From positions 32,001 to 96,000 of IMG/VR virus record IMGVR_UViG_3300005253_000193: a stretch of DNA of 64,000 nt; one strand, 5' to 3'. Source of the DNA: a virus. Shown in pieces: positions 52,938-57,714 of the stretch. The notes under the pieces are model-generated. The model was given only the letters and a program-made list of their open reading frames with translations, was not told the origin of the DNA and made no database searches. The first letter of the stretch is position 1, and every line of letters starts with the position of its first letter. The translations under genes were made by a program, and so were the position numbers.

Positions 52938-53939
52938 TCACATCTTGAAGGACGGAGCCTGCATCCACACCCCATCCTTGAACCAAGTATGGGTGGTGAC
53001 TAGGCTGATGTAATGAACCCGCGCCCCGTCGACGACGATCTGTCCAACGAACTGATCGTTCTTGATCGTGATGAGCACAACGTCGGGGAAGGTGGTAGAT
53101 GCTTCCTCCCGCTTCTCCGTGAATTCATCGTCCAGGAGGCCGATGATGATGTTTTTCGTGTCCTCCCGTTCCGCTTTGGAGACGGATTCAAGCGCATCCC
53201 CCAAGCCCCCCAGATTGTCGACTTTGGGGAGAGGACGACGCTGCGGCTCCTTGCCGATGCCCAGCTTGATTTGACGGACTGCTTCACTTCCATAGCACTC
53301 CCTGATGAGAGCTTCCCAAATCTCACGGAAGTACCGTCGGGAGGGGGAACGCTCAATGCCAACCAGCCGCCCACCGATGATGATAAGAGCCCCAACCTGT
53401 TTGGGCACACGCTCGAACTCGGCCACAAACAAGTCCAGTTCCTTTTGGAACTTGTCCATGAAGTCGATCAGGTCTCCAGGGCCGCTTAGTCCAGCCTCGG
53501 TCTTGAAGTTCCTGATGTTACCCCAGATGGCGGAGAAGTCGGGGTTGGCATTGGTGAGAGCTGCTTCCCTGAGGGACCAAGGGAGCAAGGAAAACTTGTG
53601 CTCACCACGCGGGATAGTTCCGCCTTGGGTTTCCTGGACACACAACGCATTGTCGAAGACTCGCCTGCCCTTGACGAAGCCACCCTTGCGGAGAGCATGA
53701 TCTTGAGCTCTCTCGCGGACGAGGTAGGCGGTTTGTGGCGGGACCAGGATCTCCTCGTCCGGGGACCTTGCGTCGATGTTCAGGTTTCCATAGGTGCTGT
53801 TATGAACCGTGGCCCCCTCAGGGCTGACAAATCTGTCATCCTCCAGGTCACTCAGCAGGGGAATGACCTGCATGATGCCGACGGTCTGCATCCGCCCAGG
53901 GGTGCATCCCCTGAGCATTTCGGAAATGTTGCGGGTCAT
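52938..53939 (-). CDS. ARPP-like (DUF6569/ARPP-1 or ARPP-2-like) protein
   Basis: 'MQVIPL', 'AQDHAL', 'CVQETQGG', 'FVAEFE.VP.QVGA', 'GIE..PS'; family recalled from memory. Confidence 0.55.
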   Translation of the reverse strand: MTRNISEMLRGCTPGRMQTVGIMQVIPLLSDLEDDRFVSPEGATVHNSTYGNLNIDARSPDEEILVPPQTAYLVRERAQDHALRKGGFVKGRRVFDNALCVQETQGGTIPRGEHKFSLLPWSLREAALTNANPDFSAIWGNIRNFKTEAGLSGPGDLIDFMDKFQKELDLFVAEFERVPKQVGALIIIGGRLVGIERSPSRRYFREIWEALIRECYGSEAVRQIKLGIGKEPQRRPLPKVDNLGGLGDALESVSKAEREDTKNIIIGLLDDEFTEKREEASTTFPDVVLITIKNDQFVGQIVVDGARVHYISLVTTHTWFKDGVWMQAPSFKM

Positions 53940-53960: not shown

Positions 53961-54128
53961 TTAATTCGCATCTGGCGCATCATCGTCGTCGCCGGTCAAC
54001 CAATTGAGCATGGCGACCAAACCATCTTCGTAACTCTTACCTTCGTAATGAGTTCCTTGGTCCTGGCCTTCATTTGCCCAATTCGCTACCCTATCGATCT
54101 CATCATCAGAGCGTTTGATGACACGCAT
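53961..54128 (-). CDS. 55-aa acidic protein (not in the ORF track)
   Basis: MRVIKRSDDEIDRVANWANEGQDQGTHYEGKSYEDGLVAMLNWLTGDDDDAPDAN; GGGAG SD; fills the gap in the operon. Confidence 0.7.
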   Translation of the reverse strand: MRVIKRSDDEIDRVANWANEGQDQGTHYEGKSYEDGLVAMLNWLTGDDDDAPDAN

Positions 54129-54140
54129 TTAACGTCTCCC

Positions 54141-55778
54141 CTATTCAAACCACCCAAGATCACCAAGCCGATGCTCCTTGATGGTGCTGGTGAGGATCAT
54201 GGTGATAGCTTTCTTGATGTCCGTATTGATGAACAACTTCAGGGCGGAACTCACCAAAGCTTCGGGGCTGACTACGGGTATGGCTGCGCTGACCCCACCA
54301 AGGACCCGGATACCCTCGGACTCGGCCCCTGTAACCGGCGAGACTTGGATCACAGGCGTATCTATGCCCATGTCCCTAACTCGCTCCAGGGTGTCGCCGA
54401 AGCGGCCAGCCGGGGCATTTTCGTAGCCGTCGGTAATGACGAAGACTGCATCGGGTTCGTGCTCCAGGAGACCAACCAAGGAAAGTGCCAGATTGGTATC
54501 ACCCTTGGGCTGAATAAGGGCACCCTGACCATTCCCTCCGACGTAGTGGACAGTGGACAGATTCGACGCTGCACGCAATACATCCTCGACTGCCAGAGCG
54601 ACGGCAATGGGATGAAGCTTTTGGGTCTTATGTCCATACATGGACGCCGATGCATCGACTATGATACCGACGTTCTCATAATGGAAGGGAAGCGTTTTGG
54701 CAACGTCCTCAGCCTTCTTGTCTAGGGCTTTCCTGATCTCAGCCGTCATGCCCATCTCGTAGGCGTAGATGTACAGCTTGACGGCATCATGCTTGAGAGG
54801 ATCGAAGGCAACCTCGACACCTTCCCGTTTGGCTTGGGCCTGTACGTTGATACGTTGCTTGGAAGACATCTGGTCCTTAGCCAGCTCAAGGACTTCCCCA
54901 CTTTTCACTTCCTTGTGGAACTGTCCACGGATTCCCTCCAGGACCTCTGGGGGAAGCCTTTCACCCTTGCTCAGATCATTACGCGCCTTGCGTACAGCCG
55001 CAATGATTGGAGCATCAGGATTTTCCGTTACATAGGGAACGGAAGATCCCAAGGCGTAGGCGATGGCCAAACGAGACTCGATGCCGGGGGAAGGAAAACC
55101 AGGAATATATCTGTAAACATTTTCCCTGATCAGTTTGGTCTCATCCGGCTCCCACTCCTGATAAGGGCGTTGAAGAATGGAGCGAATGACACCGGACAAC
55201 TTCTGGCCCCACACATGTCGGAGGATTGCCCCGTACTTGCGTCGATACCTGACTGCCCTCATTTCGAGGGAACCCACCGCCCCGGTATGGAGAAGGTGGC
55301 GGAGGATCAGCTTCCTCGTCCGCATGTTGTTGATCCTGGCCTGCCCAGCCATGACAAACGTCCTGAGCTGGCGCGGGACGGTGATCCCGTCGCACAGATA
55401 TTCCAGGAGATTCCGCTCCATCTCGGCGTGATGCTTTTTGGTGGTCTGAAGCATCCCTCCGCTGTGCTTATCCGAAAGCAGGCGAAGGATGCCTTGCTGC
55501 CTCGACCTGTCCATGACACCCGGCAGGGCCAAGACCGCACCATATAGGAGGCGGTCGTACAGGAACATCTTTTTGTGCGCCTCCAACTCGGCGGCTTCCT
55601 GTTCCTCCTTGGAGTTGTAGAAGGTCGCTCGGCCCTTGGCGGTGATCACGAAGTCCAGAAAGGACTCCAGGTCCTTTGAAAGACTGACGAACTGGCTGTT
55701 GGGAAGATGGATGGGAACCATAAGCTGGCTCCTGACGGCGGGCAGAGACGCGGACACTGCGGGGATGTTCTGGTTCAT
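54141..55778 (-). CDS. Helical N-terminal + vWA domain protein (Ro60/TROVE-like architecture)
   Basis: MIDAS motifs 'IVDASASM', 'GDTNL', 'ITDGYEN'; about 370-aa basic helical N-terminus; 545 aa, similar in size to Ro60/Rsr. Confidence 0.65.
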   Translation of the reverse strand: MNQNIPAVSASLPAVRSQLMVPIHLPNSQFVSLSKDLESFLDFVITAKGRATFYNSKEEQEAAELEAHKKMFLYDRLLYGAVLALPGVMDRSRQQGILRLLSDKHSGGMLQTTKKHHAEMERNLLEYLCDGITVPRQLRTFVMAGQARINNMRTRKLILRHLLHTGAVGSLEMRAVRYRRKYGAILRHVWGQKLSGVIRSILQRPYQEWEPDETKLIRENVYRYIPGFPSPGIESRLAIAYALGSSVPYVTENPDAPIIAAVRKARNDLSKGERLPPEVLEGIRGQFHKEVKSGEVLELAKDQMSSKQRINVQAQAKREGVEVAFDPLKHDAVKLYIYAYEMGMTAEIRKALDKKAEDVAKTLPFHYENVGIIVDASASMYGHKTQKLHPIAVALAVEDVLRAASNLSTVHYVGGNGQGALIQPKGDTNLALSLVGLLEHEPDAVFVITDGYENAPAGRFGDTLERVRDMGIDTPVIQVSPVTGAESEGIRVLGGVSAAIPVVSPEALVSSALKLFINTDIKKAITMILTSTIKEHRLGDLGWFE

Positions 55779-55804
55779 GGTCAGTTCCCTTTATCCAAAC
55801 AAGA

Positions 55805-55881
55805 GGCCCGGTAAGGTCGTTCGTCAGTTTTGCGTAGACACTCCTGAAGTGTATGCTGTACTGACAGACTAGTTCCGGGCC
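55805..55881 (-). ncRNA. Structured RNA unit 1 (Y-RNA-like stem with mini hairpin payload)
   Basis: GGCCCGG/CCGGGCC end stem, AACUAG/CCUUA internal loop, GUCAGU/ACUGAC stem, UACAG, hairpin ACAC-UUCAGGA-GUGU. Confidence 0.75.
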
Positions 55882-55904
55882 ACTTGGTCGTTCATTTTAT
55901 TACA

Positions 55905-55985
55905 GTCCGGTAAGGTTGTTCGTCGTGGTGCGTCATTGATCGACTTCAACGTCGAGGATGCTGTAACGGCGATCTAGTTCCGGAC
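55905..55985 (-). ncRNA. Structured RNA unit 2
   Basis: GUCCGG/CCGGAC end stem, same internal loop, CGCCGU/ACGACG stem (one mismatch), UACAG, hairpin UCGAC-GUUGAA-GUCGA, payload ends ACCA. Confidence 0.75.
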
Positions 55986-56010
55986 CTTTTTTAACAATTG
56001 GTTTAGGCGA

Positions 56011-56132
56011 GCCGGTAAGGATGTACGTTGTATTTGGTGGATGTGATTGGAATCGAACCAATTACACACTGATTGAAGTCAGTTGCTCTACCGAATGAGC
56101 TACATATCCTGTAACAACGTTCTAGTTCCGGC
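56011..56132 (-). ncRNA. Structured RNA unit 3 enclosing a complete tRNA-like cloverleaf
   Basis: GCCGG/CCGGC end stem, same internal loop, ACGUUGU/ACAACGU stem, UACAG. Confidence 0.8.
56035..56109 (-). tRNA. tRNA-like element (75 nt, encoded CCA) with non-canonical 6-nt anticodon loop CUUCAA
   Basis: GGATATG TA GCTC ATTCGGTA GAGC A ACTGA CTTCAA TCAGT GTGTA ATTGG TTCGATT CCAAT CACATCC A CCA. Confidence 0.85.
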
Positions 56133-56210
56133 CCTCCCAGCAACAAAGGAGTTGAAAATGGCGGGAGCCACTTCCATTGGGATGGTCTGCCAAAACCACC
56201 ACCAAAAATG

Positions 56211-56277: not shown

Positions 56278-57714
56278 CTAATCCACATCTGACTTGGGGC
56301 ATACTTCTTCAAGTAGATCCCAGTAATCGCTCATCATCATATGGGAACTAAGAACAAACTGACCAAGTGTATAGTTCTGGGAAATCAGAATTGTAAAGTT
56401 ATCCATGTCGGTTCTTGCATTGGACACGAACAGGCGGGCCAAACCCATCCTTTTCTCTTGTGGTGACTGACTATATGTTATGACACAATCAACAGTTGCT
56501 ACCTTGGAAATGTCTTCCGCCGCATGTATGTCACGCACCTTGGATGATTTTACTCCTTCCTTGCTAGACTGAGAAGCCACCACGGCAGCAACATTTAATT
56601 CTACGGCCAGTCCCCTTATATCGACATAGATGTTCCCAAGGTCCCTCCGATAGTTTCGTGGGTCAATCTTCATGAGATCCGGATAATCAATGAGCAGCAG
56701 GTCTGGCCTCCACCCTTCTATTACACTAAGGAGGTCTAGGAATCCTCTCAACTCATTGACAGTTAGTTGTCCCGTTGGGAATTGCTTAACCAATAATTTC
56801 CTTTTTAAACGGTCTTCCCAGAAGTCCATTTCGTCCCTTATGTGCTTCTCAATTTCAGGGTCTTGAAGGGCTATATCTGGATTTATTTTCACACGTTCAA
56901 AGTCCAAGAACTCCCCGGTTCTGCTATCTTCCTTGAGAATTGTATTTACTATGGGTTCCCTTGAGCTTCCATATCTTTTGGGAATAGAGAATAGACTCTG
57001 AAAATACCTTCCCATAATTTTCTTTTCAGACATTTCCATGGTAACATGACAGACGCGCTTGCCTTGCAGCATGGCCATCTTTGCCAAATGCATCAGCCAC
57101 CAAGTTTTTCCTCTTTTCATGAAGGCTATAAGCAGAAGGATTTCCCCCGGCGACGGACCAAGCTCGTGGAAGTCAAGTTCCTTAATACCAGTAGCGATAG
57201 CTTGGCTGGAAGCATCCAGGAAGCTCAGACTCTTGTTCAGATCTGTGAACCAAGTACCGGGGGTAAACAAATCAGCTCTCGGCTTTGCTACCTTGGTGAG
57301 TATTTCCTCCACTTCGGTTAAGTTTTTGTCGTCTTCCTCCTGTAGCATTTCGCCAGCTTCAATAATACTGGCCTTGAGCCGCTGTCTTCTGATGAAGTCG
57401 TTGACACGATTGAGGGTATAGTCTGCCTGAACCGAGTCCTGGGATTCGTAAAGATTTTGTAGGATGAGATCGTAGGCTGCCGCCTTGCGTTCATTTTTTC
57501 CCTCAAGGATAGTATCAAATACAGTGGCAAGCTCTCCTTCAGGAGCTTTACCCTCGGTATCAAGGAAATCATATATCCCCGCCGCAACCTGTCTATATTC
57601 CCCCTCGAAGAGGGATAGTTCAACCGTATTGCGAATGATCTTCCCACTCTCATAGTCAAATGCGAGCAGGATGAGAAGGTTCTGCTGTAGTAGATTGCCT
57701 AGCCCGTCAGGCAT
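56278..57714 (-). CDS. dnaB: Replicative DnaB-like helicase
   Basis: 'IATGIKELD', Walker A 'AFMKRGKT', 'TMEM', 'IDYPDLM', 'ASQ', 'AEDISK'. Confidence 0.85.
   Translation of the reverse strand: MPDGLGNLLQQNLLILLAFDYESGKIIRNTVELSLFEGEYRQVAAGIYDFLDTEGKAPEGELATVFDTILEGKNERKAAAYDLILQNLYESQDSVQADYTLNRVNDFIRRQRLKASIIEAGEMLQEEDDKNLTEVEEILTKVAKPRADLFTPGTWFTDLNKSLSFLDASSQAIATGIKELDFHELGPSPGEILLLIAFMKRGKTWWLMHLAKMAMLQGKRVCHVTMEMSEKKIMGRYFQSLFSIPKRYGSSREPIVNTILKEDSRTGEFLDFERVKINPDIALQDPEIEKHIRDEMDFWEDRLKRKLLVKQFPTGQLTVNELRGFLDLLSVIEGWRPDLLLIDYPDLMKIDPRNYRRDLGNIYVDIRGLAVELNVAAVVASQSSKEGVKSSKVRDIHAAEDISKVATVDCVITYSQSPQEKRMGLARLFVSNARTDMDNFTILISQNYTLGQFVLSSHMMMSDYWDLLEEVCPKSDVD

What the first reader, a model, noticed from the sequence alone, without database searches (positions are those of the whole stretch)
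55825..55965. Payloads of units 1 and 2 look like armless mini-tRNAs
In all three units the payload starts right after UACA. Unit 3 runs GGAU...AUCC-ACCA, unit 2 GCAU...ACGC-ACCA and unit 1 GCAU...ACGC-AAAA. Units 1 and 2 therefore keep an acceptor-like closing helix plus one hairpin. The unit 1 loop UU-CAG-GA resembles a Leu(CAG) anticodon loop; the unit 2 loop is GUUGAA (6 nt). Inference: a small library of different anticodon-loop baits derived from tRNAs by deleting the D and T arms.
Basis: inference. Interest (0 to 1): 0.7.

Follow-up and report, generated by a model that had tools for sequence, protein, structure and literature searches.

The report
Small Y-RNA partners of phage Ro60
The two short RNAs are real, conserved members of a family of small RNAs encoded in front of a hidden phage relative of the RNA-surveillance protein Ro60. 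They are best read as stripped-down versions of that protein's tRNA-shaped partner RNAs; that they act as bait for tRNA-cutting enzymes is possible but untested.

Summary
Units 1 (55882-55804) and 2 (55987-55903), minus strand, read exactly as described. A covariance model built only from other genomes finds them, with unit 3, as the only matches in the window (E 1e-8, 7e-8, 2.5e-13). Each unit has a conserved, covarying two-helix handle and a variable insert. The 545-aa gene 26 nt downstream folds as Ro60 (Z 19.5 to 1yvr), though Pfam does not recognise it. The same handle lies upstream, on the gene strand, of its homologues in phage and bacterial loci (194 of 196 model hits).

The units are therefore Y-RNA-type partner RNAs: unit 3 is YrlA-like (a tRNA mimic) and units 1-2 are YrlB-like minis. 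The commonest array is a tRNA-like unit followed by a mini.

The "armless tRNA" idea holds at family level. Minis are strongly enriched in 7-nt loops built like anticodon loops, and anticodon positions change about 5.6 times faster than the rest of the RNA. Within the window the support is weak: the closing helix is marginal, unit 2's loop has 6 nt, and it is complementary to unit 3's loop. The bait function is untested.

This scan already reported the same Ro60-like/ARPP/RNA system in at least 17 other genomes. I found no paper that describes it.

The parts
55804..55882 (-). Unit 1: small Y-RNA-like RNA (handle plus 29-nt insert), 26 nt upstream of the Ro60-like start codon
   Evidence: Covariance models R1 (52.3 bits) and R2, which was built without window sequences (43 bits, E 1.4e-8). 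Fold -31.3 kcal/mol, z -3.7.
55828..55856 (-). Unit 1 insert: GCAUA...UACGC plus AAAA, with hairpin ACAC/UUCAGGA/GUGU at 55852-55838
   Evidence: Sequence. The fold prefers a 6-bp stem with a CAG triloop. The same 7-mer, UUCAGGA, is a hairpin loop in the mini of locus L083.
55903..55987 (-). Unit 2: small Y-RNA-like RNA (handle plus 36-nt insert)
   Evidence: R1 53.6 bits. R2 40.2 bits, E 7e-8. Fold -22.1 kcal/mol, z -1.6.
55926..55961 (-). Unit 2 insert: GCAUC...GACGC plus ACCA, with hairpin UCGAC/GUUGAA/GUCGA at 55955-55940 (loop 55950-55945)
   Evidence: Sequence and fold. Loop UUGAA is Watson-Crick complementary to UUCAA in the loop of unit 3.
56008..56135 (-). Unit 3: the same handle carrying a complete, non-permuted tRNA mimic (56109-56035) with the 6-nt loop CUUCAA (56078-56073) and an encoded ACCA
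   Evidence: Rfam tRNA 58 bits. ARAGORN reports a 2-base anticodon. R2 62 bits, E 2.5e-13.
54141..55778 (-). 545-aa Ro60-like protein (helical-repeat ring plus vWA domain with MIDAS motif DxSxS at residues 375-379)
   Evidence: AlphaFold2 model, pLDDT 90. Foldseek's top 13 PDB hits are all Ro60. VIA-align gives Z 19.5, rmsd 4.2 A over 404 residues to 1yvr. No Pfam, PHROG or PDB-sequence hit.
53961..54128 (-). 55-aa ORF with an acidic tail, between the two genes
   Evidence: ORF list. Not analysed further.
52938..53939 (-). 333-aa ARPP-1-like protein, the constant partner gene
   Evidence: Pfam PF20208, E 2.8e-21. A homologue lies directly downstream of the Ro60-like gene in 131 of 142 loci. 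The confident model has no solved structural relative.

Best explanation
**What they are.** Units 1 and 2 are small Y-RNA-type partner RNAs of a very diverged phage Ro60 homologue. They are the counterpart of YrlB or Yrn2, while unit 3 is the counterpart of YrlA.

**Anatomy.** Each RNA has an outer 7-8-bp stem formed by its two ends, an invariant asymmetric internal loop (5' ACU, 3' CCU) and an inner stem of about 9 bp ending in U-W-C-A-G. Together these form a handle. By analogy with Ro60 and Y RNA, this handle is the protein-binding site. The variable insert on top is the effector module.

**Origin of the minis.** In units 1 and 2 the insert is a reduced tRNA mimic: a short, imperfect terminal helix plus one hairpin that keeps the format of the anticodon-position arm (a 5-bp stem with a small loop).

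**Proposed working.** The three RNAs are probably transcribed together with the Ro60-like and ARPP-like genes and cut into separate RNAs. Each would load one Ro60-like ring and determine what that ring is tethered to, or what is allowed into it.

**Shown here:** the family, the covarying handle, its linkage to the gene, the protein fold, and the tRNA-derived nature of inserts across the family.

**Inferred:** binding, processing, and any partner or target.
For: 1. **Protein.** The Ro60 fold covers residues 35-515. Foldseek's top 13 hits are all Ro60, and Z is 19.5 to 1yvr and 15.5 to phage phiLo Ro60. The MIDAS residues D375, S377 and S379 are invariant in 44 homologues.
2. **Handle.**
   - On 30 units from many loci, 81% of cells pair against at most 43% when partners are slid.
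   - All 17 pairs show compensatory changes.
   - The covariation score is 0.61 against 0.22 in shuffles.
3. **Linkage.**
   - Of 196 model hits in 142 homologue loci, 194 lie on the gene strand, nearly all within 3 kb upstream.
   - The window's three units are the only hits in the whole 105,963-bp phage genome.
4. **Tie to known Y RNAs.** Some units on the same handle carry the permuted T arm / acceptor stem-loop / D arm order of YrlA. Rfam's YrlA model matches them below its cut-off: L127:2563-2698 at 40.4 bits (E 1.7e-5) and L004 at 33.5 bits.
5. **Minis are a regular part.** Insert lengths are bimodal, 18-66 nt and 70-93 nt. 'tRNA-like then mini' is the commonest array, in 18 loci. This mirrors the YrlA+YrlB and Yrn1+Yrn2 pairs in Chen et al. 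2014 (PMC4201824).
6. **tRNA descent of minis.** There is a continuum of reduced forms and a strong excess of anticodon-arm-like hairpins.
Against:
- The handle does not contain the published Ro-binding motif GNCGAAN0-1G. The window has GNCCGGAACU.
- Rfam's YrlA model does not match the window.
- Pfam's TROVE model matches no family member, so homology to Ro60 rests on a predicted structure.
- The inserts of units 1 and 2 are not significantly structured on their own. They have no close orthologues among the loci I could fetch, so their internal pairing is not tested by covariation.
Confidence: 0.72

Rival explanations
1. One reading: the inserts are a library of minimal anticodon-arm baits, decoys or sensors for enzymes that cut or modify tRNA anticodon loops, displayed on the Ro60-like particle. 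This extends the best explanation rather than excluding it.
For: - Minis across the family are enriched in 7-nt loops with U at position 2 and a purine at position 6: 21 observed against 0.4 expected.
- ARAGORN tRNA-like units. They carry 35 different anticodons on a nearly invariant D arm, and 12 of 60 have A at position 34, which real bacterial decoders rarely use.
- Loop geometry is nevertheless kept: U33 in 52 of 60 and R37 in 57 of 60.
- In 11 close orthologues the loop centre differs at 0.367 per site against 0.066 elsewhere.
- The system sits in phages and often inside tRNA gene arrays.
Against: - No nuclease is linked to the locus.
- Fast loop change can also mean relaxed constraint.
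- Unit 2 has a 6-nt loop, and unit 1's 7-nt loop is not the preferred fold.
- There is no cleavage or competition test.
Confidence: 0.2
2. Unit 2 is a pairing partner of unit 3. Its loop G-UUGAA forms a loop-loop (kissing) helix with the anticodon-position loop C-UUCAA of unit 3. This would join two particles or mask the mimic's loop.
For: - Five Watson-Crick pairs form between the two hexaloops of the window.
- In phage locus L004, a tRNA-like unit with the hexaloop CCUAAA has a neighbouring unit whose arm ends in GUUUAG. That is again 5 complementary bases, with a different sequence.
- In L127, one mini carries both CUUCAA and CUUUGAA loops.
- Phage phiLo Ro60 was seen as a dimer on Yrl2 (PMC12135203).
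Against: - A family-wide permutation test of loop complementarity within arrays is not significant (p about 0.07-0.10).
- In the window and in L127 both loops have the form UU-x-AA, so only the middle base has to match.
- L001 has CUUCAA without a complementary loop.
- I noticed the pattern after looking at the data, so it was not a prior hypothesis.
Confidence: 0.25
3. Units 1 and 2 are decaying duplicates of a tRNA-bearing unit and have no function of their own.
For: The inserts alone fold no better than shuffles. Units 1 and 2 share GCAU...ACGC, as paralogues would.
Against: - Their handles are intact and score like functional relatives under an independent model.
- The three outer stems differ yet all pair: C-G, U-A and G-C at the same position.
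- Minis are a conserved component of arrays in many loci.
Confidence: 0.06
4. The units, unit 1 above all, are a cis-acting leader through which the Ro60-like protein controls its own translation.
For: Unit 1 ends 26 nt before the start codon. Arrays usually lie directly upstream on the same strand.
Against: - In L004 the array lies downstream of both genes.
- Arrays of up to five units, and units as far as 2-3 kb upstream, are hard to explain as an operator.
- This reading is compatible with a trans role.
Confidence: 0.1

Closest known systems
YrlB (Salmonella, M. smegmatis) and Yrn2 (D. radiodurans): the small second Y RNAs bound by bacterial Ro60/Rsr (Chen et al. 2014, PMC4201824)
   Same: A small RNA encoded next to a larger tRNA-mimicking Y RNA, upstream of and on the same strand as the Ro60 gene. 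Its ends pair into a stem that carries the presumed protein site, topped by a short hairpin module.
   Different: - The handle sequence differs: ACU/CCU loop and U-W-C-A-G instead of GNCGAAN0-1G.
- The protein is a Ro60 relative that sequence models do not detect.
- The partner gene is ARPP-1-like, not RtcB/RtcA.
- Many minis of this family carry anticodon-arm-like hairpins.
YrlA, the tRNA-like Y RNA (Rfam RF02553; PMC4201824; bioRxiv 10.1101/312249)
   Same: A tRNA mimic mounted on a Ro-binding stem. Some units of this family have the same permuted T / acceptor stem-loop / D order and get sub-threshold YrlA hits.
   Different: The window's unit 3 and most family units are not permuted. The handle extends from the acceptor end and the anticodon arm is exposed and variable. 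Units 1 and 2 have neither a D arm nor a T arm.
Thermus phage phiLo Ro60 with Yrl1 and Yrl2 (PMC12135203; PDB 9KOP, 9L5Y)
   Same: A phage-encoded Ro60 with two small stem-bulge-stem RNAs just upstream. It is a structural match to the window's protein (Z 15.5).
   Different: The phiLo RNAs use the CGAA motif and carry no tRNA-like or anticodon-like module. No ARPP partner was reported.
D. radiodurans Yrn1
   Same: The paper models it with an 'anticodon arm' of 5 bp and a 6-nt loop. Unit 3 (CUUCAA) and unit 2 (GUUGAA) have the same format.
   Different: A different handle and protein clade. I could not compare the loop sequences because the paper's figures are not held.

Membership tests
Y RNA (partner RNA of Ro60/Rsr; YrlA/YrlB class) | Encoded within about 4 kb of a Ro60 orthologue, on the same strand | tested here: met
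   Units lie 26-357 nt upstream of a gene whose product folds as Ro60. In the homologue loci, 194 of 196 hits are on the gene strand.
Y RNA (partner RNA of Ro60/Rsr; YrlA/YrlB class) | The 5' and 3' ends pair into a stem with a conserved bulge or internal loop | tested here: met
   Two helices around an invariant ACU/CCU loop. All 17 pairs covary, and 81% of cells pair against at most 43% in slid controls.
Y RNA (partner RNA of Ro60/Rsr; YrlA/YrlB class) | 5'-strand motif GNCGAAN0-1G (bacteria) or GGUCCGA (animals) | tested here: not met
   The window has GG(C/U/G)CCGGAACUAG and the family consensus is CG(G/A)G(G/A)ACU. It resembles the motif but does not match it.
Y RNA (partner RNA of Ro60/Rsr; YrlA/YrlB class) | Match to Rfam YrlA (RF02553) at its gathering score | tested here: not met
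   No hit in the window at E <= 10. Sister units on the same handle reach 40.4 and 33.5 bits against a cut-off of 69.
Y RNA (partner RNA of Ro60/Rsr; YrlA/YrlB class) | Bound by the Ro60 protein in vivo or in vitro | not testable with these tools
   This needs immunoprecipitation or a gel shift.
tRNA (decoding) | Cloverleaf with D and T arms and a 7-nt anticodon loop | tested here: not met
   Neither ARAGORN nor Rfam finds a tRNA in units 1 and 2. Unit 3 has the cloverleaf but a 6-nt loop.
Anticodon stem-loop mimic | Stem of about 5 bp closing a 7-nt loop with U at position 2 and a purine at position 6 | tested here: inconclusive
   Unit 1 can form ACAC/UUCAGGA/GUGU, but the fold prefers a triloop. 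Unit 2 has a 6-nt loop. In homologues the feature is common: 21 loops against 0.4 expected.
Ro60 / TROVE protein (for the adjacent gene) | Helical-repeat ring plus C-terminal vWA domain with a MIDAS motif | tested here: met
   Z 19.5, rmsd 4.2 A over 404 residues to 1yvr. D375, S377 and S379 are invariant.
Ro60 / TROVE protein (for the adjacent gene) | Match to Pfam TROVE (PF05731) | tested here: not met
   No TROVE hit in any of 44 family members, even at E <= 1; only weak vWA hits.

The most novel reading that the evidence does not exclude
The handle is a display stand. Phages and bacteria use the Ro60-like/ARPP particle to present a fast-evolving set of anticodon arms, either whole tRNA mimics or bare minimal hairpins such as units 1 and 2. 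These would serve as decoys for, or sensors of, enzymes that attack tRNA anticodon loops. The loops diversify under conflict while the body and handle stay fixed.
Probability: 0.2. Interest if true: 0.8.

Novelty: new variant of a known kind. Interest (0 to 1): 0.55.

Why it matters
Ro60 and Y RNAs are conserved from bacteria to humans, yet what the variable part of a Y RNA does is still largely open.

This branch has hundreds of loci in phages, Planctomycetota, Myxococcota and Bacteroidota. It comes with a fixed unknown partner enzyme (ARPP-1-like). It mounts everything from full tRNA mimics to single hairpins on one handle.

That gives a natural series of minimal modules. Units 1 and 2 are about 80 nt, small enough for binding, structural and swap experiments that ask what a Y-RNA module recognises. 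If the loops turn out to be baits or pairing elements, this would link Ro60 particles directly to the phage-host conflict over tRNAs.

Tried and rejected
**Searches that found nothing**
- Rfam at E <= 10 found only the tRNA of unit 3 in the window.
- Pfam, PHROGs and PDB sequence searches, with the single protein and with a profile, found nothing for the 545-aa protein.
- The ARPP-like model has no solved structural relative: Foldseek best E 0.025, VIA-align wide best Z 3.8.
- GenBank phages hold one unannotated relative, LR756500.1.
- I found no paper on this system.

**Tests that gave weak or chance results**
- An exact scan of IMG/VR for CCGGAACUAG-N8-UACAG gave 11 single matches. The covariance model rejects all of them, so they are chance.
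- Loop-loop complementarity as a general rule of arrays is not significant by permutation (p 0.07-0.10).
- A general closing helix above the handle gives only a weak signal.
- The promoter and terminator scans are no better than shuffles.

**Other classes considered and dropped**
- CRISPR-like array or ToxI-type antitoxin repeats: the units are not repeats of one sequence, and the gene product is a Ro60 fold.
- Retron RNA: none of the neighbouring genes I scanned (Pfam/PHROGs) is a reverse transcriptase.
- Ordinary pre-tRNAs with paired leader and trailer. The evidence against is 6-nt loops, A34 anticodons, mismatched acceptor stems, a nearly invariant D arm, and CCA in only 7 of 64.

Full report
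**What is there.**
On the minus strand, three units lie between the DnaB-like helicase gene (56278-57714) and a 545-aa ORF (54141-55778).
- Every unit opens with GGNCCGGAACUAG, a variable stem strand and UACAG.
- Every unit closes with the complementary stem strand, ACNNCCUUA and CCGGNCC.
- Unit 3 (56135-56008) encloses a complete tRNA (56109-56035; Rfam 58 bits) with a 6-nt loop CUUCAA and an encoded ACCA.
- Units 2 (55987-55903) and 1 (55882-55804) enclose 36 and 29 nt.

**The observation.**
Each mini has one hairpin.
- Unit 2: UCGAC/GUUGAA/GUCGA.
- Unit 1: ACAC/UUCAGGA/GUGU, which the energy model closes further to a CAG triloop.

The proposed acceptor-like closing helix is four Watson-Crick pairs split by an A.C mismatch.
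- The inserts folded alone are no more stable than shuffles (z -0.87 and -0.64).
- A crude family-wide test for such a helix gives only a small excess (3.63 against 3.37 +/- 0.06).
- The first G of the "payload" is the invariant G of the family motif U-W-C-A-G.

So the hairpins are real and the closing helix is marginal. As whole units, both minis are far from chance. Model R2, built only from bacterial-genome loci, finds units 3, 1 and 2 at E 2.5e-13, 1.4e-8 and 7e-8, and nothing else in the window at E <= 1. Model R1, which included the window's units, finds only these three in the whole 105,963-bp phage genome.

**The neighbouring protein.**
The 545-aa product has no Pfam, PHROG or PDB-sequence match.
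- It has at least 262 homologues of about 530 aa; only candidates sharing most words were scored. A few are labelled "VWA domain-containing".
- A model built on 44 of them is confident (pLDDT 90).
- Foldseek's 13 best PDB hits are all Ro60: frog, human, D. radiodurans Rsr and Thermus phage phiLo.
- VIA-align gives Z 19.5 (rmsd 4.2 A, 404 residues) to 1yvr. The top eight rows are all Ro60 and span residues 35-515 or a little wider (31-538), that is, ring plus vWA.
- The MIDAS residues D375, S377 and S379 are invariant.
- Pfam TROVE matches no member. This is therefore a Ro60 relative visible only by structure.

**The RNA family.**
Loci around homologues (80 viral, 62 genomic) carry the same handle upstream.
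- On 30 units from many loci, the two helices pair in 81% of cells against at most 43% when partners are slid. All 17 pairs show compensatory changes. The covariation score is 0.61 against 0.22 in shuffles.
- Model R1 finds 196 units at E <= 0.01 in the 142 loci. Of these, 194 are on the gene strand and almost all lie within 3 kb upstream.
- Some units on this handle carry the permuted T arm / acceptor stem-loop / D arm order that defines YrlA. Rfam's YrlA model hits them below its cut-off: L127:2563-2698 at 40.4 bits (E 1.7e-5), L004 at 33.5 bits and L105 at 27 bits.

Together with the Ro60 fold, this places the units among Y RNAs in the sense of Chen et al. 2014 (PMC4201824). They differ in the handle motif and mostly carry a non-permuted tRNA mimic whose anticodon arm is exposed.

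**What units 1 and 2 are.**
- Insert lengths are bimodal: about 51 distinct minis of 18-66 nt, and a main group of 70-93 nt.
- The commonest array is a tRNA-like unit followed by a mini (18 loci). The window and L001 have tRNA-like, mini, mini.
- This mirrors YrlA+YrlB and Yrn1+Yrn2.

The minis are thus a regular component and not debris.

**Is the "armless tRNA" idea right?**
At family level, largely yes.
- Inserts form a series: full cloverleaves, forms without the D arm (an anticodon-like arm plus a T arm, for example L095:2398-2486), forms without the T arm, and single hairpins.
- Among the minis, 39 of 79 hairpins have 7-nt loops (shuffles 3.6 +/- 1.9). Of these, 21 have U at position 2 and a purine at position 6 without being T-loops (shuffles 0.4 +/- 0.7). 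Examples are CUGUUAA, CUGUAAA, CUUAGAA and CUUCUAA.
- ARAGORN calls a tRNA in 64 of 172 distinct units, with 35 different anticodons on a nearly invariant D arm.
- Of the 60 heptaloops among them, 12 have A34, which real decoders rarely use.
- Four of the 64 have 6-nt loops, and only 7 of the 64 end in CCA.
- U33 (52 of 60) and R37 (57 of 60) are nevertheless kept.
- In 11 near-identical Pirellulaceae orthologues, the loop centre differs at 0.367 per site against 0.066 elsewhere.

The family therefore keeps the geometry of an anticodon loop while its letters change freely. This fits a display function, but relaxed constraint would look similar.

Within the window the case is weaker. Unit 2's loop has 6 nt, and unit 1's 7-nt loop is not the preferred fold. 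Its 7-mer UUCAGGA does recur as a hairpin loop in the mini of L083.

**An extra observation on unit 2.**
- Its loop G-UUGAA is complementary over five bases to unit 3's loop C-UUCAA.
- In phage locus L004, a tRNA-like unit with the hexaloop CCUAAA sits beside a unit whose arm ends in GUUUAG. This again gives five complementary bases, with another sequence.
- In L127, one mini carries both CUUCAA (on the same CUGA/UCAG stem as unit 3) and CUUUGAA.
- A family-wide permutation test is not significant (p 0.07-0.10).
- Two of the three cases share the form UU-x-AA, so only the middle base has to match.

I keep loop-loop pairing as a rival at about 25%.

**Wider system.**
- An ARPP-1-like gene (Pfam PF20208, E 2.8e-21) follows the Ro60-like gene in 131 of 142 loci.
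- Its confident model has no solved relative.
- ARPP was proposed to act on ribose moieties in ADP-ribose-centred conflict systems (PMC9503650). That is all that can be said about its role here.
- The loci often sit in tRNA gene arrays.
- This phage has three ordinary tRNAs elsewhere: Lys-UUU, Thr-UGU and Pro-UGG.

**Known or new.**
- I found no paper describing this branch.
- GenBank phages hold a single unannotated relative.
- The scan itself has reported the same Ro60-like/ARPP/handle-RNA system in at least 17 other genomes, including handles that carry bare anticodon-type hairpins. The system is therefore not new to this project.
- What this report adds is the census of minis, the statistics on their loops, and the complementarity of the loops of units 2 and 3.

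**Limits.**
There are no expression, RNA-end or binding data. Relatedness among loci inflates the family counts. The shuffles preserve only base composition.

**Verdict.**
- Units 1 and 2 are YrlB-like minimal partner RNAs of a hidden phage Ro60, with confidence about 0.7.
- Bait or decoy use is open, at about 0.2.

Noticed in passing
window 56073-56078 (-); L001:2548-2674; L127:2813-2905: The 6-nt loop CUUCAA at the anticodon position of unit 3 recurs in a tRNA-like unit of phage locus L001. It also occurs in a mini of a Pseudohongiella genome (L127), where it sits on the same CUGA/UCAG stem as in unit 3.
   Followed up: partly
L004:5937-6090 and L004:6114-6238: Two neighbouring units have complementary hexaloops, GUUUAG and CCUAAA. 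In this locus the RNA array lies downstream of the Ro60-like and ARPP-like genes instead of upstream.
   Followed up: partly
window 53961-54128 (-): A 55-aa ORF lies between the Ro60-like and ARPP-like genes. It ends in an acidic tail (DDDDAPDAN), which could be a ligand for the vWA metal site. I did not check whether it is conserved.
   Followed up: no
window 52938-53939 (-): The ARPP-1-like partner gives a confident model (pLDDT 91) with no solved structural relative (best Z 3.8). Q18, C100 and Q79 are among its invariant residues.
   Followed up: partly
L127:2563-2698, L004:5981-6056, L105:2704-2818, L026:1124-1211: Units on the same handle with permuted tRNA order get sub-threshold Rfam YrlA hits (27-40 bits). 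One family therefore mixes permuted and non-permuted tRNA mimics.
   Followed up: partly
L020:2702-2828 and L020:2845-2912: The mini of this array repeats the loop sequence ACAUUAAA of the tRNA-like unit beside it. It is the same sequence, not the complement.
   Followed up: no
window 55841-55845 (-): The hairpin of unit 1 contains AGGAG, a Shine-Dalgarno-like sequence, with no usable start codon behind it.
   Followed up: no
genome G000:C1:26833-27354 (outside the window): The phage has three ordinary tRNA genes (Lys-UUU, Thr-UGU, Pro-UGG) about 60 kb away from the Ro60-like cassette.
   Followed up: no
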